DNA of 64,000 nucleotides, taken from the NCBI GenBank assembly GCA_049521075.1, contig JBEKPD010000003.1:47766-111765 (forward strand), in the 5' to 3' direction. This stretch comes from Terracidiphilus sp. Its GTDB lineage: Bacteria; Acidobacteriota; Terriglobia; Terriglobales; Acidobacteriaceae. The position numbers and the translations under genes were made by a program. This document shows, piece after piece, positions 44,650-51,112 of the stretch. The notes beneath the pieces were generated by a model, which saw only the letters and a list, made by a program, of their open reading frames with translations, had not been told where the DNA came from and did not search any database. The stretch's first letter is position 1. Every line of letters starts with the position of its first letter.

Positions 44650-45264
44650 CTATCCGGACGCGGCCTGTTCCCTGCGAAGCAAATACATGGGGTGCATGAG
44701 GCCAGTGGGGATGTAGAGTTTGTCGCCCTGGTACGCGAAACCAAGCTTGATCAGCAGGCGGCCCGACGCGACGTTTTGCGGGTGATGCCCGGCAACGATT
44801 GCCGTGGCGCCTAGCGGACCGAATGCCCTGGGGATGATGGCTTCGGCCGCTTCACGCGCGATTCCCCGCCCCCAGAACTCCGGGAGCAAGTGGACTCCCA
44901 TTTCATAGCTGGCTTTACCGGCCTCGTAAGGGCGTATACCTGCGCAGCCCGCGTGACGGCCATCGGCGACGAGAAAGACCGACCAGTATTGCATTCCGTA
45001 TTGATTTTGTTGTTCGATCTCCTGGGCGAGCCGTTTGAGTGCTACATCGCGCGTCCATGGGCCGCCGATCAGCGCCGTCACCTGCGGATTGCACCAGAGA
45101 TCGATTGCGAGATCCTCGTCGCGGGCAGTCCAGCAGCGGAAGCCCAGGCGCTTTGTGGTGAGGAAGTAGCCCGGCGGGTCCGCGGGCTCTGAAACAGATG
45201 GGTTGGCGGAAGGTTGGCGAACACTCGCGGGCGCACCTTCGACGCCTTCCCAGTACTGGCTCAT
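44650..45264 (-). CDS. GNAT N-acetyltransferase (RimJ/RimL-like)
   Basis: LTTKRLGFR, EMGVHLLPEFWGRGIARE, NVASGRLLIKLGF; ATGA overlap with cysE. Confidence 0.9.
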   Translation of the reverse strand: MSQYWEGVEGAPASVRQPSANPSVSEPADPPGYFLTTKRLGFRCWTARDEDLAIDLWCNPQVTALIGGPWTRDVALKRLAQEIEQQNQYGMQYWSVFLVADGRHAGCAGIRPYEAGKASYEMGVHLLPEFWGRGIAREAAEAIIPRAFGPLGATAIVAGHHPQNVASGRLLIKLGFAYQGDKLYIPTGLMHPMYLLRREQAASG

Positions 45265-45995
45265 ATGCCTTCGCCCATCGAAACATAGACGCGCAGGCGT
45301 TCCAGCTCCGCACTATAGGCGGCGCGCTCGGCCTCTTCATCGGCGAAGGGCTTGGCCCAGCGATCGCGGGCGCCGAGACGCTCTTCCAGTTCGTCCACGC
45401 GGACCGAGAGTGCAATAAGGGCATCAGAGAGCGGATCCTTAATCTCATGCGGATCGGTGATGAGCACGCGCTGGCCGTTGTGATAAACGATATGCGCGGG
45501 AACGCCGACCACAGTGGAATTCGGCGGCACGTCGGAGAGAACCACGGAGCCTGCGCCGACGCGCGAATTCTCGCCTACGGTCACGTTGCCGAGGATGTTG
45601 GCGTTGTTGCCTATAAAAACGTTGTCGCAAATAGTAGGGTGGCGCTTGCCATGCTGCTTGCCGGTGCCGCCGAGAGTGACGCCTTGATATATGGTCACGT
45701 CGCTGCCCACGATGGCGGTTTCGCCGATGACGACTCCCGTGGCGTGATCGATGAAGAGCCTCGCACCGATGAGCGCGCCGGGGTGAATGTCGACGCCGGT
45801 ATAGAAACGCGCCACCTGCGAGAGAACGCGCGCGAGTAGACGCAAGTTGCCACGCCATAGCCAGTGCGAGAGACGGTGGATCCACACCGCCCATAGGCCG
45901 GGATAGCAGAGCAGCACTTCAAGACGCGTGCGCGCAGCCGGATCGCGCTCCATGATGGAGCGAATGTCGTCGTGCATGCGATAAAGCAGGGACAT
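45261..45995 (-). CDS. cysE: Serine O-acetyltransferase CysE
   Basis: ERDPAAR, YPGLWA, DIHPGA, DHATGVVIGET, GKRHPT. C-terminal GEGI matches the CysK-binding tail of E. coli CysE (GDGI). Confidence 0.96.
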   Translation of the reverse strand: MSLLYRMHDDIRSIMERDPAARTRLEVLLCYPGLWAVWIHRLSHWLWRGNLRLLARVLSQVARFYTGVDIHPGALIGARLFIDHATGVVIGETAIVGSDVTIYQGVTLGGTGKQHGKRHPTICDNVFIGNNANILGNVTVGENSRVGAGSVVLSDVPPNSTVVGVPAHIVYHNGQRVLITDPHEIKDPLSDALIALSVRVDELEERLGARDRWAKPFADEEAERAAYSAELERLRVYVSMGEGI

Positions 45996-46003
45996 AGGGA
46001 AAC

Positions 46004-46093
46004 AGGGAATAGGGAGTAGCCAATAGGGAGTAGCAAGCGAACCGGATTTTTACTCCGTTTTCTACTCCCTATTCCCTACTGCCTGCTCCCTGC
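46004..46093. repeat. Inverted pair of heptamer arrays between cysK and cysE
   Basis: AGGGAAT AGGGAGT AGCCAAT AGGGAGT AG ... CT ACTCCCT ATTCCCT ACTGCCT GCTCCCT. Confidence 0.8.
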
Positions 46094-46096
46094 TTT

Positions 46097-47077
46097 TTAC
46101 GCCGGCACCGCAATCGGCTCGGGCTGCAGGGCCAGCGCTTGCTGGCGCAGCGGCTCGAAGAGAATGCTCGACAGATAGCGCTCGCCGAAATCGGGTAGGA
46201 CAACCACGATCAGCTTACCCTTATTCTCAGGCCGCGCTGCCACTTTGAGAGCCGCGGCGGCCGCAGCGCCGGAGCTGATGCCCACAAAAAGGCCTTCTTC
46301 CTTGGCCAGCCGCCGCGCCGTCTCAACCGCTTCATCGTTAGAGATCTGAACGATCTCGTCGATGAGCTTGGTGTCGAGAATGCTCGGCACAAAGCCCGCG
46401 CCGATGCCCTGGATCTTGTGCGGGCCGGGCTTGCCGCCGGAGAGCACAGGACTGTCCGTGGGTTCGACGGCGATGGCCTTGAACGACGCTTTCTTGGGCT
46501 TGATGAAGTTCGATACGCCGGTGAGGGTTCCGCCGGTGCCTATGCCGGAGATGAGGATGTCGACTGCACCATCCGTGTCGTCCCAGATCTCTGGGCCGGT
46601 GGTGGCCAGATGGATGGCTGGGTTGGCGGGGTTGTCGAACTGTTGGAGGATGTAGCCGTTGGGCGTCTTTTCCAGGACTTCGTTGGCTTTGGCGATAGCG
46701 CCCTTCATGCCATTGGGACCGGGGGTAAGCACAATTTCCGCGCCGTAAGCGAGCAGGGTCACGCGGCGCTCCAGGCTCATGGTCTCGGGCATGGTGAGGA
46801 TGAGCCGGTAGCCCTTGACCGCGGCCACAAACGCCAGCGCGATGCCGGTGTTGCCGCTGGTGGGCTCGATGAGCACGGTTTTGCCGGGGGTGATCTTGCC
46901 GGCCTTCTCGGCGGCCTCGATCATGGCAAGTCCGATGCGGTCCTTGACGCTCGACGCGGGGTTCTGGCTTTCCAGCTTGACGGCGACGGTAGCCGGAAGT
47001 CCGGCTGCCACACGGTTCAACCGCACCAACGGAGTGCGGCCGATCAATTCAGTAACATTCGCGGCAATGCGCGCCAT
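46097..47077 (-). CDS. cysK: Cysteine synthase A (O-acetylserine sulfhydrylase)
   Basis: [20 protein letters not shown] (PLP Lys), [28 protein letters not shown]; SD AGGAGA. Confidence 0.97.
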
Positions 47078-47150
47078 GATGATCTCCTTTTTCCCGGGCC
47101 ACGCGCCCGGACCTGTCAAAATTTTGGGGATTGGTGCAGCTTATCGGAGG

Positions 47151-47178
47151 AAAAAATCGAGCGCGCTTCAGGCGCACT
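47151..47178 (-). terminator. Intrinsic terminator inside the cysK 5' leader (attenuator 3:4 stem)
   Basis: Minus strand AGTGCGC-CTGAA-GCGCGCT-CGA-TTTTTT. Confidence 0.6.
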
Positions 47179-47207
47179 TGAGCATCGGAGCTGGCACCAG
47201 GACGGTG

Positions 47208-47225
47208 TTAGCGACATCGATGCAT
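47208..47225 (-). CDS. Putative leaderless leader peptide MHRCR* upstream of cysK
   Basis: ATG CAT CGA TGT CGC TAA. The ATG is the 7th nt after the -10 hexamer TACGCT. Confidence 0.5.
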   Translation of the reverse strand: MHRCR

Positions 47226-47231
47226 ACAAAT

Positions 47232-47261
47232 AGCGTAGACCCAACGGCCCGGCGATGGCAA
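47232..47261 (-). promoter_or_regulatory. Sigma70 promoter for the cysK-cysE-GNAT operon
   Basis: TTGCCA-N18-TACGCT on the minus strand. Confidence 0.55.
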
Positions 47262-47304
47262 GGGGCGTGATCGGTCCTATGTTTCGGCAACGAATTCTGC
47301 TGGT

Positions 47305-50205
47305 TCATCCGGTGTTGCGCAAGCCTGCGGCGATGCCGTTGATGGTGGCGGCGATGACGCGGTTCACTTCGGGCGTGTCTTCACCCTGGCGCTTGCGGCG
47401 CAGCATGTCGACTTGGATCAAATGCATGGGATCGACGTAAGGGTTGCGCAGCTTGATGGATTGAGCGAGAACCTGGTTGGTTTCAAGCAGCTCCTTCTGG
47501 CGCAGCACGGCGAGCAGGCCGCGCACGGTGCGATGGAACTCGGCCTCGAACAGGTCGTAGATGCGCTCGCGGAGCTGCTCGTCCTTGACCAGCGAGGAGT
47601 AGAGGCGCGCGGTGCCGAGGTCGGCTTTGCCCAGCGCCATTTCCACGTTACGCAGCAGGTCGATGAAGAGCGGAAACTCTCTGGCCATGGTTTGCAGCAG
47701 ATCGATTTTGGATTGGGCGGGTTTGGTTTGGGTGGGATTCGTTTCGGAGGGCGCGCCGGACTCCGAAAGATAGCGATCGATGGCATAGCCCACGCCGAAC
47801 CACGCGGGCACCAGTAGCCGCGACTGCGTCCAGCCGAAGACCCACGGGATGGCGCGGAGATCCGAGAGCTTTGGCGAATTGTTGCGGCGCGCGGGGCGCG
47901 AGCCGATCTTGGCGTTTTCAAGCTCGCCCACGGGCGTCGACTGCTCGAAGTAGGTGATAACGCCCGGATCTTCGAGGATGTGCTCGCGATAAAAGCCGTA
48001 GGCCAGGCTCGAAAGCGTGTCGAACGCTGCCTCCCATTCCGGCTTGAGCACGCCGGTGAAGTGGCCCTCGGGGTCGCGCGCGTTGGGCCGGGCCAAAGCG
48101 TCTAATGAAGCGGCGATCATGAGTTCGAGGTTGCGCTCGGCCAGCACCTCGTCGGCGTATTTGAAGTTGAGCACTTCGCCCTGCTCGGTGATGCGCAACT
48201 GGCCGTCGAAGGAGTCGAAGGGCTGCGCAAAGATGGCGCGATGCGTGGGTCCACCACCGCGGCCCACTGTGCCGCCACGGCCATGGAAGAGGCGCAACCG
48301 GATGCCCGCCTCGCGCGCGGCCACATGTAGATCGCGATGCGCGCGGAAGATCTCCCACGTGGAGGTGAGCATGCCGCCGTCCTTGTTCGAGTCGGAGTAG
48401 CCGAGCATGATCTCCTGCCAATCGCCCCAGCTGGCGAGAAGTTTGCGGTAATCAGGACGACTCCAGAGTTCGCGGCAGATGGCAGGCGCGTTGCGCAGAT
48501 CTTCGATGGACTCGAAGAGAGGCACAGGCATGAGGCCCGGATCGGGGCCTTCTTCTGCGCCTTCGACGGCAACGCCGCCCAGCCGCGCCAGGCGGATCAC
48601 GGCCAACACATCTTCAACCGACGATGCGCCGCTGATGACATACTGGCGAATGGCTTCAGGCGAACATCCCCGCTTGATTTCGGCGACGACGCGGAAGGTT
48701 TCAAGCACGCTCGCGGTTTGTGCGGAGAGCCCGCTGGCCAGCGTCGGCGCAATGGTATCGCTGATCGCCTCCTGCAAAGCGGCAGCATGAACGCGGGCAT
48801 GCTGGCGGATATCGAGCGTATGCAGATGCAGACCGAAGGTACGCACCTGCAGGACGAGCGGATCGATGAGCGTACGGGCGATGCGGATGCCGCCATTCGC
48901 GGCCAGAGACGCGCGCAGCGTTTCGAGATCTTCAACAAAATCCTGGACCGAGCAGTAGGCAGGCAGCGCCTGTGTGAGCTTATCGTTACGGCTCGCCAGC
49001 GTGTAAGGCGTGACGGGCAGCATGCTGCCGGCAGCCGCGTGCGCTTCGCCCGTCTCCTCCAGCGTGCGCTGGATGCGCGCCTTGAGGCAGATCACAAAGC
49101 GGCGGTAGTACTCGAATTCATATTGCGAACCGAAGACCTGCGCTTCAGGCGTGTGCACCAGGGACACATACACGCGGAGCCGCTTCATTAGCGCATCGCT
49201 CGCGGGCCGCTGCTGGGCGCTCGAGGTGAGTAGGTCGATGATGCGGTCGAGCCGGCGCTGGTAGTAGAGCAGCAGATGGCCGCGGGCCAGTTGCAGCGCG
49301 GCGCGCGTGACCTCAGGCGTCACAAAGGGATTGCCGTCGCGGTCGCCGCCGATCCAAGAGCCGAAGTGCAGAACCAGGGGCAGCTCGTGGGGCTCGATTT
49401 CGAGGCCATAGGCTGCGCCGAGGGCCGCGGAGATCTCGCGATAGAGCCCGGGCAGAGTCTCGAAGATCGAAACGTCATAGTAGTCGAGGCCCATCTTGAT
49501 CTCGTCGTAGACGGTGGGCCGGCGCGAGCGCACTTCGTCGGTCTGCCACAGGCCAGTGATTTCAGCCAAAACCAGTTCTTCGAGCCGGGCAAGATCCAGC
49601 CCGGGGATGGGGATGCGGTCGAGCGCCTCGAGAAACTCGCCGATGCGGCGGCGCTTGAACATGACGGTGCGGCGCGCGGCTTCAGTAGGATGAGCCGTGA
49701 AGACCGGCACGATGAGCACACGGCGCAGCCAGTTCAGAGCCTCTTCCGCGCCAATGCCCACGCGGCGCATCTCCGAGAGCGTGCCTGCAAGCGAACCGCG
49801 CTGGCGGCCGGCCTGTCCGCTCAGGCGCAGGGCAACGCGGCGGCGCTTGCGATGATTCGTTTCCGCCAAATTGATGAGCTCGAAGTAGAAGGCGAAGGCA
49901 CGCGTGAGCAAGATGGCGCGCTCTACGGGAAGTGAGTGCACCAGATCGAGAGCGGCGACGGCGTGACGCGCGGCCTCTCCGGCCTGGCCGCGGAGCTCCG
50001 CGTCACGGCGGCGGATGGTGCCCTGGCGCAAAGCCTCGACCTGCTCGAAGGCCTCGCTGCCGGCCTGCTCGCGCAGCACCGTGCCAAGGAGTGTGCCCAG
50101 CGAGCGCACGTCGCGGCGCAGAGGCGCCTCTTTCAGGTCGCCGGACTGCGCTTCAATCTCTGCCAGCCGCTGGGACCAGCTCTCGGGGTTCCAAAGGGAA
50201 GCCAT
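47305..50205 (-). CDS. ppc: Phosphoenolpyruvate carboxylase
   Basis: FTAHPTE, GSWIGGDRDGNP, MLGYSDSNKDGG, FHGRGGTVGRGGGP, LRAIPWVFGW, LRNTG. Confidence 0.97.
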   Translation of the reverse strand: MASLWNPESWSQRLAEIEAQSGDLKEAPLRRDVRSLGTLLGTVLREQAGSEAFEQVEALRQGTIRRRDAELRGQAGEAARHAVAALDLVHSLPVERAILLTRAFAFYFELINLAETNHRKRRRVALRLSGQAGRQRGSLAGTLSEMRRVGIGAEEALNWLRRVLIVPVFTAHPTEAARRTVMFKRRRIGEFLEALDRIPIPGLDLARLEELVLAEITGLWQTDEVRSRRPTVYDEIKMGLDYYDVSIFETLPGLYREISAALGAAYGLEIEPHELPLVLHFGSWIGGDRDGNPFVTPEVTRAALQLARGHLLLYYQRRLDRIIDLLTSSAQQRPASDALMKRLRVYVSLVHTPEAQVFGSQYEFEYYRRFVICLKARIQRTLEETGEAHAAAGSMLPVTPYTLASRNDKLTQALPAYCSVQDFVEDLETLRASLAANGGIRIARTLIDPLVLQVRTFGLHLHTLDIRQHARVHAAALQEAISDTIAPTLASGLSAQTASVLETFRVVAEIKRGCSPEAIRQYVISGASSVEDVLAVIRLARLGGVAVEGAEEGPDPGLMPVPLFESIEDLRNAPAICRELWSRPDYRKLLASWGDWQEIMLGYSDSNKDGGMLTSTWEIFRAHRDLHVAAREAGIRLRLFHGRGGTVGRGGGPTHRAIFAQPFDSFDGQLRITEQGEVLNFKYADEVLAERNLELMIAASLDALARPNARDPEGHFTGVLKPEWEAAFDTLSSLAYGFYREHILEDPGVITYFEQSTPVGELENAKIGSRPARRNNSPKLSDLRAIPWVFGWTQSRLLVPAWFGVGYAIDRYLSESGAPSETNPTQTKPAQSKIDLLQTMAREFPLFIDLLRNVEMALGKADLGTARLYSSLVKDEQLRERIYDLFEAEFHRTVRGLLAVLRQKELLETNQVLAQSIKLRNPYVDPMHLIQVDMLRRKRQGEDTPEVNRVIAATINGIAAGLRNTG

Positions 50206-50296
50206 GCTGATTTGATTATGCACGAGGCACTTCAGGCAGCGTATGCTCGCCAATCTCGGAGGTGCTGTATCGTGAAGGTGCAACCAATCGCCCGTC

Positions 50297-51112
50297 ATGT
50301 CTAAACGCGAAAAGCGGTACGAATCCGAACGCGAGAGCCTGCGCGCACAGATGATTGAAAACGCGGCCGAGATCAACCGCCTTCACCGGCGGGTACACGA
50401 GACTTTCTCCGGGACATCAACCGCCGAGAACTCTCGCGAAGAATGGTCCGGCGCTTGCCGGGAGTTCCACGACCGCTATGCACAACTCTGCATCCCTGGC
50501 GGTTGGGACAGCAGCTTTATGGACCGGTTGAAGGTAGGTGAATTTCACACGGTAGAAGCGGCGCTCTGCTTTCTTGAGGTACGCCCATATTTCTTTCGCT
50601 CCGGTTATATGTGGAAGGACCTGCTAAGGAAATGCAAGCGGGTCCGCATGAACGAGGAGCAAGCTTCGCGCTTCATTGCCCTTCTTGAGCGCCACTCGGA
50701 GTGGAAGACGAATCGCGATGCTAAGGCGAGACGGGGAACGAAGGTCCGGAACAATTTGTCGACCCTTTTTGTGCGATTCGAGAGGCTTTTCCCGATCCAT
50801 TTCCTAGATTCGGATCTCGATGGAATAAATACAGTCGGCGATCTTTATGGCACCCTGTGCCGCAAATTGAAGCTGGAGCCACTTAAAAAACCTGAGGTCA
50901 ACGACGGTAAGGCGAGGAAACCATATTCACCGGGCAAACTCGTAAGATTTCCAAGCATTGGTCTTTACTTGAGCGAGACTCACATGCTGAGCAGTTGGAA
51001 CGCGGCAGATGGCTGGGCGACTCTTGTGGCGACGATCCGTGACGTTTATGGAGCCGGCGACGAACTCAGTATCGGCGCTCAGACGATGCTACCAATCACT
51101 CGAAGCGACTAA
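50297..51112 (+). CDS. Hypothetical protein (helical N-domain; C-terminal ACP-like similarity)
   Basis: 271-aa ORF filling the intergenic gap, with protein-like composition. No family recognised with certainty. Confidence 0.6.
   Translation: MSKREKRYESERESLRAQMIENAAEINRLHRRVHETFSGTSTAENSREEWSGACREFHDRYAQLCIPGGWDSSFMDRLKVGEFHTVEAALCFLEVRPYFFRSGYMWKDLLRKCKRVRMNEEQASRFIALLERHSEWKTNRDAKARRGTKVRNNLSTLFVRFERLFPIHFLDSDLDGINTVGDLYGTLCRKLKLEPLKKPEVNDGKARKPYSPGKLVRFPSIGLYLSETHMLSSWNAADGWATLVATIRDVYGAGDELSIGAQTMLPITRSD

What the first reader, a model, noticed from the sequence alone, without database searches (positions are those of the whole stretch)
47151..47261. Candidate cysteine-sensing attenuator: leaderless uORF MHRCR* plus switchable terminator upstream of cysK-cysE
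Seen (minus strand): TTGCCA-N18-TACGCT promoter, with the 7th nt after the -10 being the A of a 5-codon ORF M-H-R-C-R (47225-47208). Immediately downstream are mutually exclusive stems. Stem 1:2 is GCT-AA-CACC/GGTG-CC-AGC (47212-47190). Stem 2:3 is GGTGC..AGC/GCT..GCGCC. Stem 3:4 is AGTGCGC/GCGCGCT followed by a U6 tract (47178-47151), about 75 nt before the cysK start. Known: amino-acid attenuators work by ribosome stalling on leader codons, and leaderless poly-Cys sORFs control cysteine genes in mycobacteria. Inference: a ribosome stalled at the single TGT codon would cover segment 1 and allow the 2:3 antiterminator, whereas a ribosome at the stop would cover segment 2 and allow termination. 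I know of no such single-Cys, intrinsic-terminator attenuator described for this lineage.
Basis: partly seen in the sequence, partly recalled or inferred. Interest (0 to 1): 0.8.

Follow-up and report, generated by a model that had tools for sequence, protein, structure and literature searches.

The report
Tiny cysteine-sensing leader before cysK-cysE
Just upstream of the cysteine-synthesis genes cysK-cysE of a soil/peat Acidobacterium lies a conserved five-codon mini-gene (Met-x-Arg-Cys-Arg-stop) embedded in switchable RNA hairpins, most likely a ribosome-based sensor that raises cysteine synthesis when cysteine runs short; the principle is known from mycobacteria, but this very small single-cysteine form and this phylum are new.

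Summary
The window comes from an Acidobacteriaceae genome (Terracidiphilus / Ca. Sulfotelmatomonas-like). The order on the minus strand is ppc, a 227-nt gap, then cysK, cysE and a GNAT gene.

The element is clade-restricted. It precedes cysK in 10 of 10 relatives sampled through the protein alone (CysK at least 80% identical). It is absent from 12 of 12 more distant Acidobacteriota loci. A DNA-pattern scan added 120 metagenome contigs. Nearly all with enough downstream DNA carry cysK 140-235 nt downstream; L194 is rearranged and L082 keeps only a partial cysK match.

Conserved features:
- The -35 and -10 boxes.
- An invariant ATG exactly 6 nt after the -10 box.
- The ORF M-x-R-C-R-stop.
- Hairpin 1:2, the pairing potential of 2:3, and hairpin 3:4.

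A sister clade has poly-Cys uORFs (…CCPCCCR*, …RCCCSR*) before cysK-cysE. These end in the same UGU-CGC-stop, which supports ribosomal sensing of Cys-tRNA.

The weak point is the terminator. Only about 28% of members have a run of at least 4 U after hairpin 3:4, so the output may be Rho-dependent or translational elsewhere.

Verdict: real, and a new variant of a known kind. There is no experimental evidence.

The parts
47256..47261 (-). -35 box TTGCCA of the cysK leader promoter
   Evidence: Read. cTTGCCA sits at a fixed offset in the family.
47232..47237 (-). -10 box TACGCT (family pattern TAnnnT), 18 nt after the -35 box and 6 nt before the ATG
   Evidence: TAnnnT lies at -12..-7 in almost all unique leaders. 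It does not meet the consensus criteria of the promoter scan.
47208..47225 (-). Predicted leaderless 5-codon uORF ATG CAT CGA TGT CGC TAA (M-H-R-C-R-stop); predicted +1 at 47225
   Evidence: ATGC and C7 are invariant in 128 leaders although the search pattern did not force them. Codon 2 varies among CAT, CGT, CAA, CCT, CTT and CAG. CGA TGT CGC TAA is identical in all 10 relatives sampled through the protein.
47182..47223 (-). Hairpin HP1 (the 1:2 structure): P1 is GCAUCG/CGAUGC, P2 is GCU/AGC, P3 is CACC/GGUG, loop GUCCU. It encloses the uORF from G3 onward.
   Evidence: MFE folds. P1 is paired in 94.7% of cells and P2/P3 in 93%. The A/G at nt 5 tracks the U/C at its partner position; compensated changes occur in L006 and L161.
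47171..47198 (-). Alternative 2:3 structure (candidate antiterminator): GGUGC (47198-47194) with GCGCC (47175-47171), plus AGC with GCU
   Evidence: It is the MFE of nt 23-59, at -9.8 kcal/mol. The outer helix can pair in 91.3% of cells and the inner one in 63%.
47151..47178 (-). Hairpin HP2 (3:4), AGUGCGC-CUGAA-GCGCGCU, then CGA and U6: an intrinsic-terminator-like site
   Evidence: -10.3 kcal/mol with z = -2.9. The hairpin is conserved, with double-sided changes at 4 of 7 pairs. The U-run is not conserved.
47112..47159 (-). Pyrimidine-rich, G-poor spacer. It contains UUUCCU (47153-47148), which can pair with the SD, and segment 5 AAGCUGCACCA (47142-47132), which is complementary to segment 2.
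   Evidence: Plus-strand GC skew is +0.37 to +0.53. Segment 2 pairs with segment 5 in the fold with nt 1-22 removed in the window and in at least 10 of 20 relatives. 71.8% of cells pair. UUUCCU pairs with AGGAGA in the full-leader MFE.
47093..47111 (-). Hairpin HP3, UCCGGGC-GCGUG-GCCCGGG, immediately 5' of the A-rich stretch and SD
   Evidence: Covariation across 44 leaders: 27 cells changed on both sides against 11.5 +/- 2.7 in shuffles, 0 of 500 shuffles as high.
47084..47088 (-). Shine-Dalgarno AGGAG of cysK
   Evidence: nearly invariant in A4.
46097..47077 (-). cysK (cysteine synthase A, 326 aa), the regulated gene
   Evidence: TIGR01139, E = 1e-139.
45261..45995 (-). cysE (serine O-acetyltransferase), second gene of the operon
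   Evidence: TIGR01172, E = 5e-75. It follows cysK in most related loci.

Best explanation
This is the 5' leader of a cysK-cysE(-GNAT) operon, and it most likely acts as a ribosome-mediated cysteine attenuator.

Proposed mechanism:
1. Transcription starts at the A of an AUG (47225).
2. A 70S ribosome initiates without a leader on an 18-nt ORF, M-x-R-C-R-stop.
3. The ORF's only Cys codon is UGU. My inference is that it is read by G:U wobble.
4. That codon lies in the 5' strand of hairpin HP1, so a ribosome there keeps HP1 open.

When Cys-tRNA is plentiful:
- The ribosome finishes and leaves, or never loads.
- HP1 (1:2) folds.
- HP2 (3:4) forms, and in this genome its U6 tract terminates transcription before cysK.

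When Cys-tRNA is scarce:
- The ribosome waits at UGU and keeps about nt 1-22 occupied.
- The freed GGUGCCAGC pairs with the 5' strand of HP2 (2:3).
- RNA polymerase reads through.
- Later in the transcript the same segment can pair with a conserved downstream copy of segment 1 (AGCUGCACC), enclosing HP2 and its pyrimidine tail.

What is shown and what is inferred:
- Shown: the sequence elements, their conservation, the pairing potentials, and the exclusive link to cysK-cysE.
- Inferred: the transcription start site, translation of the uORF, stalling, and termination.
For: Genes:
- cysK and cysE are identified.

Clade-specific conservation tied to cysK:
- 8 of 8 genome loci with CysK at 81-92% identity carry the element. 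None of 12 more distant Acidobacteriota loci do.
- 2 of 2 further protein-based look-ups carry it.
- Of the 120 pattern hits, nearly all with enough downstream DNA have cysK 140-235 nt downstream, usually followed by cysE. L194 is rearranged and L082 keeps only a partial cysK match.
- ppc is upstream in only a subset, so the element belongs to cysK and not to ppc.

Start codon at the predicted transcript start:
- The -35 box, an 18-nt spacer, the -10 box, a 6-nt spacer and the ATG keep fixed spacing.
- A1 and U2 lie outside every predicted helix, yet they are invariant in 128 sequences.
- Leaderless genes were predicted to make up about 13% of genes in Acidobacteria (PMC3160421).

Switch structures:
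- HP1 pairs in 93-95% of cells.
- 2:3 is the MFE of the partial transcript and can pair in 91% of cells.
- HP2 and HP3 show double-sided changes.

Independent support for Cys-codon sensing:
- The sister clade has uORFs MRAIANSAPCDSCRLCCCR*, ...AASCCPCCCR*, ...MGCCPCCCR* and ...YLRCCCSR*.
- They end 55-65 nt before cysK-cysE, and all finish with UGU CGC UAR like the window.

Precedent:
- Mycobacterial leaderless poly-Cys sORFs, including one before cysK1-cysE (10.1101/834739).
- A uORF motif with two tandem Cys codons and a terminator before cysS (PMC8632094).
Against: - There are no transcript, ribosome or reporter data.
- The promoter is a weak consensus match.
- HP1 starts at G3, so a folded HP1 would block leaderless initiation. 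Loading must happen co-transcriptionally.
- A single sensing codon is unusual.
- CGA, UGU, CGC and UAA show no synonymous change in the 10 relatives sampled through the protein. The 5' strand is therefore constrained at the nucleotide level. The large metagenome set cannot test this because the search pattern fixed those bases.
- A run of at least 4 U follows HP2 in only 35 of 127 members, and there is none in L207. Intrinsic termination therefore cannot be the family-wide output.
- Once the whole leader is made, HP2 is always the favoured fold.
- P1 has uncompensated mismatches in about 8 members.
- Whole-leader folds are not more stable than shuffled sequences.
Confidence: 0.5

Rival explanations
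1. The sensor is the same (a leaderless Cys uORF within HP1), but the main output is not intrinsic termination.

When the uORF is vacated, HP1 forms. That leaves the C-rich, G-poor spacer free for Rho loading, or leaves its pyrimidine tract (UUUCCU, or CUCC in segment 5) free to mask the Shine-Dalgarno sequence.

When the ribosome stalls, segment 2 pairs with segment 5. This buries HP2, its tail and part of the spacer, which prevents Rho loading or frees the SD.
For: - The U-tract is absent from about 72% of members, whereas the pyrimidine-rich tail, segment 5 and HP3 are conserved.
- With nt 1-22 removed, segment 2 pairs with segment 5 in the window and in at least 10 of 20 relatives.
- Paired variants occur: CAGCU with AGCUG, GAGCU with AGCUC, GGUGCGA with UCGCACC (L004), and AGCC with GGCU (L087). 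71.8% of cells pair, against 25-55% when the partner is slid.
- The tail or segment 5 pairs with GGAG in many full-leader MFEs.
- The spacer has a strong C>G skew.
- The sister-clade poly-Cys leaders have no terminator hairpin.
- The mycobacterial system is translational, and Rho was proposed for actinobacterial Cys leaders (PMC1262725).
Against: - Pairing between the SD and an anti-SD cannot be tested by covariation because the SD is invariant. Any pyrimidine run will pair with GGAG in an MFE fold.
- In the stalled-state folds the SD is often still paired.
- The segment 2:segment 5 statistics are modest: 55 of 500 shuffles reach the observed number of covarying pairs.
- CUCC in segment 5 is not universal.
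- There is no known rut consensus to test against.
Confidence: 0.27
2. HP1 is a structured sensor RNA, either a small riboswitch or a protein-binding site that responds to a sulfur metabolite or regulator. The ATG...TAA reading frame would then be incidental, or only secondary.
For: - Nucleotide-level invariance of nt 7-22, including all synonymous positions, in every unbiased sample.
- The start codon's G and all the codons lie inside a stable hairpin.
- The element is tied to cysK-cysE.
- It matches no known RNA family, so a new class is not excluded.
Against: - Conservation is one-sided. The 5' strand is invariant, while the opposing internal-loop and 3'-strand positions vary freely. This is not typical of an aptamer.
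- A1 and U2 lie outside the structure but are invariant.
- At 42 nt, HP1 is very small for an aptamer.
- The sister clade keeps Cys-Arg-stop uORFs without HP1.
Confidence: 0.12
3. This is an ordinary unregulated 5' UTR. HP2 with its U6 is simply the ppc terminator or an insulator. HP1 and HP3 are stabilising hairpins, and the mini-ORF is a coincidence. Alternatively, +1..+22 is a DNA operator for a repressor.
For: - ppc ends 80 nt upstream of the ATG (47305) and has no terminator hairpin of its own before the promoter.
- In the window, HP2 with U6 would stop ppc read-through.
- A U-run is somewhat more frequent where ppc is upstream: about 14 of 34 against 21 of 93 (my count).
- CATCGATG is a DNA palindrome.
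Against: - The element, promoter included, is kept where ppc is not upstream, for example in L003, L005, L006, L007, L053 and L207.
- The ATG and the Cys-Arg-stop are invariant.
- The palindrome is lost in the majority CGT variant.
- The association between nt 5 and its partner 37 nt away argues for RNA and against a DNA site.
- The sister clade has poly-Cys uORFs.
Confidence: 0.08

Closest known systems
Mycobacterial leaderless polycysteine sORF attenuators (Canestrari et al. 2020; e.g. Ms5788A, and Rv2334A upstream of cysK1-cysE)
   Same: - A leaderless sORF at the 5' end of a cysteine-biosynthesis operon.
- Cys codon(s) placed right before the stop.
- Sensing of Cys-tRNA supply by ribosome transit.
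- The same target genes, cysK-cysE.
   Different: - A different phylum, Acidobacteriota.
- 5 codons and one Cys codon, against about 30 codons with a run of Cys codons.
- The uORF pairs locally in a hairpin, not with the downstream SD.
- A terminator-like hairpin is present in the window, whereas the mycobacterial mechanism is translational.
Classical trp/his/leu-type transcription attenuators
   Same: - A leader ORF carrying codon(s) of the end-product amino acid.
- Mutually exclusive 1:2, 2:3 and 3:4 helices.
- 3:4 followed by a U-run in the window.
- A biosynthetic operon downstream.
   Different: - Initiation is leaderless, not SD-led.
- There is a single regulatory codon.
- The ORF lies almost entirely inside segment 1.
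- The stop codon is too far from segment 2 for a terminating ribosome to mask it.
- The U-tract is missing in most family members.
uORFC-8-2 motif upstream of cysS in Rhodobacterales (Brewer et al. 2021)
   Same: A predicted Cys-codon uORF within a stem, followed by an intrinsic terminator, in front of a cysteine-related gene.
   Different: - No sequence relationship.
- Two tandem Cys codons at positions 14-15 of a longer peptide.
- SD-led initiation.
- A different target gene (cysS) and a different phylum.
Candidate Cys leader peptides without terminators in Actinobacteria (Seliverstov et al. 2005)
   Same: Runs of Cys codons near the stop codon upstream of cys operons. No conserved terminator, so Rho was proposed. 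This resembles the acidobacterial sister-clade leaders.
   Different: - They are purely predicted.
- A different phylum.
- No equivalent of HP1, HP2 or HP3.

Membership tests
Ribosome-mediated transcription attenuator (trp/his type) | Short leader ORF containing codon(s) for the amino acid made by the downstream operon | tested here: met
   M-x-R-C-R-stop carries one UGU codon upstream of cysK-cysE. It is conserved in all family members.
Ribosome-mediated transcription attenuator (trp/his type) | The leader ORF is translated (functional initiation signal) | tested here: inconclusive
   There is no SD. The AUG sits exactly 6 nt after a conserved -10 box, which fits leaderless initiation. The TSS and translation were not measurable.
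Ribosome-mediated transcription attenuator (trp/his type) | Mutually exclusive helices 1:2, 2:3 (antiterminator) and 3:4 (terminator) | tested here: met
   1:2 pairs in 93-95% of cells. The 2:3 outer helix pairs in 91% and is the MFE of the partial transcript. 3:4 is conserved, with double-sided changes. Support comes mostly from conservation; true covariation is limited.
Ribosome-mediated transcription attenuator (trp/his type) | The 3:4 hairpin is followed by a U-tract (intrinsic terminator) | tested here: inconclusive
   Met in the window, which has U6. Only 35 of 127 relatives have a run of at least 4 U, and L207 has none.
Ribosome-mediated transcription attenuator (trp/his type) | Readthrough increases on starvation for the amino acid | not testable with these tools
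   Needs Term-seq or reporter assays.
Mycobacterial polycysteine leaderless sORF translational attenuators | sORF begins at the transcription start (5' AUG/GUG) | tested here: inconclusive
   Predicted only from the conserved spacing between promoter and ATG.
Mycobacterial polycysteine leaderless sORF translational attenuators | C-terminal tract of consecutive Cys codons | tested here: not met
   The window clade has a single Cys codon. The sister clade does have CCPCCC and CCC tracts.
Mycobacterial polycysteine leaderless sORF translational attenuators | The Cys-codon region base-pairs with the SD region of the downstream gene | tested here: not met
   In the MFE folds of 20 leaders, most pair the uORF region locally within HP1 or with HP1's own 3' strand. 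L097, L092 and L168 instead pair part of the uORF region long-range into the spacer, still not with the SD. By eye, only a 4-nt GAUG/CAUC match to the cysK initiation region exists.
Known RNA families (Rfam 15, including riboswitches and T-box) | Match to a curated covariance model | tested here: not met
   No hit in 47078-47304 even at E <= 10.

The most novel reading that the evidence does not exclude
An 18-nt leaderless ORF with a single wobble-read Cys codon may be a complete amino-acid sensor. It would drive a three-partner RNA switch in which segment 2 can pair with segment 1, segment 3 or segment 5. That switch would gate both premature termination and a later step, either Rho loading or SD access. 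If so, this is the smallest ribosome-dependent attenuator known and the first in Acidobacteriota.

A still more unusual reading is not excluded: HP1's invariant 5' strand may also bind a ligand or protein, making the element a hybrid of riboswitch and attenuator.
Probability: 0.15. Interest if true: 0.8.

Novelty: new variant of a known kind. Interest (0 to 1): 0.6.

Why it matters
- **Spread of the mechanism.** uORF-based cysteine sensing has experimental support only in mycobacteria. A conserved family in Acidobacteriota, which are dominant in soil and peat, would show the strategy is widespread and evolved repeatedly, or is ancient.
- **Design limits.** The window's version has five codons, one sensing codon and no leader. 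It gives a directly testable case for how little is needed for ribosome-mediated attenuation, and for leaderless translation in this phylum.
- **Open question on output.** Close relatives include members with and without a U-tract. That makes this a natural series for asking whether Cys leaders act through intrinsic termination, Rho or translation, a question left open since 2005 for Actinobacteria.
- **Annotation.** Several database CysK entries of this clade appear to have over-long N-termini that run through the leader.

Tried and rejected
1. **HP2 as merely the ppc terminator.** Rejected as the main role, because the whole element persists where ppc is not the upstream gene.
2. **Rfam scan at E <= 10.** Nothing in the leader; only spurious miRNA and snoRNA hits elsewhere.
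3. **Covariance model R1, built from 128 leaders.** No second copy in the window and no diverged copy in 72 other cysK loci.
4. **RNAalifold on the MAFFT alignments.**
   - On A2 it recovered only P3 plus an alternative UGUCG:CGAUG pairing.
   - On A4 it recovered nothing.
   - The causes are the invariant 5' strand and gap placement.
   - I used explicit pair counts instead.
   - HP2 survives in all 20 folds lacking nt 1-22.
   - I revised this after folding the transcript as it exists before HP2's 3' strand is made.
6. **T-box-like reading of tRNA.** The idea was UGU in an internal loop and UGG in the terminal loop. Rejected:
   - There is no Rfam T-box hit.
   - The hairpin is far too small.
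   - The codon is on the wrong side of the loop.
   - UGGU does not match the U73 discriminator of tRNA-Cys (my knowledge).
7. **L194, the only pattern hit without cysK downstream.** Its leader is broken after HP1 and is followed by an integrase fragment.
8. **Contig ends as a hint to the TSS.** L094 starts 2 nt before the ATG. One case among 120 contigs is too weak to count.
9. **Loss of the Python machine.** It failed, so family-wide constrained folding and exact statistics could not be run. Some counts were made by hand from alignment A2.
Full report
**1. What is there**

All features are on the minus strand. A phosphoenolpyruvate carboxylase gene (47305-50376, NF000584, ending ...GLRNTG*) is followed by a 227-nt gap. 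Next come cysK (46097-47077, TIGR01139 E = 1e-139) and cysE (45261-45995, TIGR01172). A GNAT acetyltransferase ORF overlaps the end of cysE by 4 nt. CysK's closest relatives are Terracidiphilus and Acidobacteriaceae MAGs, and a 93% match is named Ca. Sulfotelmatomonas gaucii.

- TTGCCA (47261-47256), 18 nt, TACGCT (47237-47232), 6 nt, then ATG CAT CGA TGT CGC TAA (47225-47208).
- Stem GCU-AA-CACC with GGUG-CC-AGC.
- Stem AGUGCGC with GCGCGCU (47178-47160), then CGA and U6 (47156-47151).

Folding adds an outer helix, GCAUCG (47223-47218) with CGAUGC (47187-47182). The uORF from G3 onward is therefore the 5' strand of a 42-nt hairpin, HP1.

Taken alone these motifs are unremarkable:
- The promoter fails the scan's consensus criteria.
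- One terminator-like hit compares with 2.8 expected.
- The HP1+HP2 fold has z = -2.6.
- Rfam has no match in the gap even at E <= 10.

**2. Conservation**

A CysK-based scan of one genome per species is blind to the leader. It returned 20 Acidobacteriota loci.
- All 8 loci with CysK at 81-92% identity carry the same arrangement upstream of cysK.
- The 12 loci at 73-77% identity do not.
- Two more protein-based look-ups, L206 and L207, also carry it.

A scan of metagenome contigs used a pattern taken from the core.
- Nearly every hit with enough downstream DNA has cysK (79-97% identical) starting 140-235 nt downstream, usually followed by cysE.
- The exceptions are L194, whose leader is broken after HP1 and runs into an integrase fragment, and L082, where only a partial cysK match (residues 145-324) was found.
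- ppc is the upstream neighbour in only a subset, so the element travels with cysK.

Across 128 aligned leaders:
- The -35 and -10 boxes keep fixed spacing to the ATG.
- A1, U2, G3, C4 and C7 are invariant although the pattern did not force them.
- Codon 2 varies: CAU, CGU, CAA, CCU, CUU and CAG.
- CGA UGU CGC UAA is identical in all 10 protein-sampled relatives. The pattern-derived set cannot speak to these positions.

**3. RNA structures**

- *HP1.* P1 pairs in 94.7% of cells and P2/P3 in 93%. The 5' strand is nearly invariant, so true covariation is scarce.
  - The variable nt 5 tracks its partner. C at the partner position goes with G5 in 18 distinct sequences and with A5 in about 1. My hand hypergeometric estimate is P about 0.001, uncorrected for phylogeny.
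  - L006 (GCAACG/CGUUGC) and L161 (GCCUCG/CGAGGU) are compensated.
  - About 8 members carry uncompensated mismatches.
- *HP2.* It is conserved, with double-sided changes at 4 of 7 pairs, even on an alignment not built to respect RNA structure.
- *HP3.* This third hairpin (47111-47093) lies directly 5' of the A-rich SD region and covaries clearly. It shows 27 double-sided cells against 11.5 +/- 2.7 in shuffles, with 0 of 500 shuffles as high.
- *Spacer.* Between HP2 and HP3 the RNA is pyrimidine-rich and G-poor. Plus-strand GC skew is +0.37 to +0.53 at 47110-47159.

**4. The switch**

I removed nt 1-22 to mimic a ribosome waiting at UGU, and cut the transcript before HP2's 3' strand. The minimum-energy fold is then exactly 2:3:
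- In the window it is -9.8 kcal/mol, against -10.3 for HP2 alone.
- It recurs in about 9 of 15 relatives.

Once the whole leader exists, HP2 always wins. Segment 2 then pairs with a downstream near-copy of segment 1, AGCUGCACC (47141-47133), and this helix encloses HP2 and its tail.
- It forms in the window and in at least 10 of 20 relatives.
- Paired variants occur: CAGCU/AGCUG, GAGCU/AGCUC, GGUGCGA/UCGCACC.
- 72% of cells pair, against 25-55% for slid controls.

In full-length folds the pyrimidine tail (UUUCCU, 47153-47148) or the CUCC of segment 5 often pairs with the SD. Such pairings are cheap to obtain and cannot be tested by covariation.

**5. Is it a Cys-tRNA sensor?**

The strongest independent support comes from the sister clade, whose CysK is about 77% identical to the window's. 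Four of five distinct loci carry uORFs ending 55-65 nt before cysK-cysE:
- MRAIANSAPCDSCRLCCCR*
- ...AASCCPCCCR*
- ...MGCCPCCCR*
- ...YLRCCCSR*

All finish with UGU CGC UAR, as in the window. The window clade thus looks like a minimal member of an acidobacterial family of Cys uORF leaders: one Cys codon, five codons, leaderless.

This matches the logic shown experimentally for leaderless poly-Cys sORFs in mycobacteria, where one precedes cysK1-cysE. It also matches earlier predictions for Actinobacteria and for cysS in Rhodobacterales. Leaderless genes were predicted at about 13% in Acidobacteria. Four literature searches found no description of this element.

**6.

- *U-tract.* The window's U6 is the best case in the family. 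Only 35 of 127 members have a run of at least 4 U after HP2 (hand count). Typical tails read CUCUUCCCCGCC. L207, with CysK 92% identical, has no U-run at all after HP2. Intrinsic termination is plausible here, and also convenient because ppc lacks its own terminator. It cannot be the family-wide output, and the sister-clade leaders have no terminator hairpin either.
- *Ribosome reach.* By standard footprint sizes (my knowledge), a ribosome with UAA in its A site reaches only to about nt 25-28 and so would not cover segment 2. The OFF state more likely needs ribosome release and HP1 refolding, or transcripts that never loaded a ribosome.
- *Loading.* HP1 includes the G of the AUG, so loading must precede folding of HP1.
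- *Synonymous sites.* The absence of synonymous change shows nucleotide-level constraint beyond coding. This fits overlapping structural roles, and perhaps selection for slowly read codons (inference). It also keeps a ligand- or protein-binding role for HP1 alive, though the one-sided conservation argues against an aptamer.

**7. Verdict**

- A uORF-based cysteine attenuator is the best explanation. I put the probability that the uORF is the sensor at about 0.75, summed over the different possible outputs.
- The specific output in this window is probably termination at HP2/U6.
- A conserved second layer, either Rho-dependent or translational and acting through the segment 2:segment 5 helix, is quite possible.

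It is a new variant of a known kind. It is not yet described for this phylum, and it is notable for its minimal size.

Noticed in passing
window 45996-46096 (minus strand, between cysK and cysE): A very stable long hairpin (-52.9 kcal/mol, z = -6.0) built from CUAYUCCCUAU / AUAGGGARUAG units. These units occur only here in the window. The hairpin caused spurious MIR408 hits on both strands. It may be an intra-operon processing, stability or partial-termination element.
   Followed up: partly
window 44650-45264 (minus strand): A GNAT acetyltransferase ORF (Pfam Acetyltransf_3) overlaps the end of cysE by 4 nt. The operon is therefore probably cysK-cysE-GNAT.
   Followed up: partly
window 46097-47119; database proteins: The mechanical ORF list extends cysK to a TTG at 47119 (340 aa), running through HP3 and the SD. 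Many database CysK entries of this clade are 334-377 aa. At least some probably have mis-called starts that swallow part of the leader. P0001 (377 aa) starts correctly and is longer for another reason.
   Followed up: partly
L012 2876-2935; L201 ~471-539; L203 470-544; L205 ~473-541: Sister-clade Terriglobales MAGs carry poly-Cys uORFs (…CRLCCCR*, …SCCPCCCR*, …RCCCSR*, …GCCPCCCR*) 55-65 nt upstream of cysK-cysE, with no terminator-like hairpin. L202 lacks one.
   Followed up: yes
L077, about 115-211 nt upstream of cysK: An uncultured bacterium outside Acidobacteriota has a uORF MRNTTPIHRTCCCCCRG… with five consecutive Cys codons upstream of cysK.
   Followed up: no
L016 and L018, about 60-100 nt upstream of cysK: Other Terriglobales cysK loci without a Cys uORF share a different conserved upstream sequence, ATAGTAGAGTTAnTnGTGTTAAAyGGCG. 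Its nature is unknown.
   Followed up: no
L194 2166-2519: This is the only pattern hit without cysK downstream. The leader is intact through HP1, then diverges into a fragment of a phage-integrase-family ORF, which indicates a rearrangement.
   Followed up: yes
L094 2500-2502; L129 2222-2233: Two metagenome contigs end 2 nt and 11 nt upstream of the uORF ATG. If either comes from RNA, this would fit a TSS at the ATG, but it is too weak to count.
   Followed up: partly
L207 1425-1500: A relative with 92%-identical CysK keeps the uORF exactly. It has a loop variant (CCGCUCUGG) that my search pattern would have missed. Its U-rich stretch sits inside the HP2 loop, and no U-run follows HP2.
   Followed up: partly
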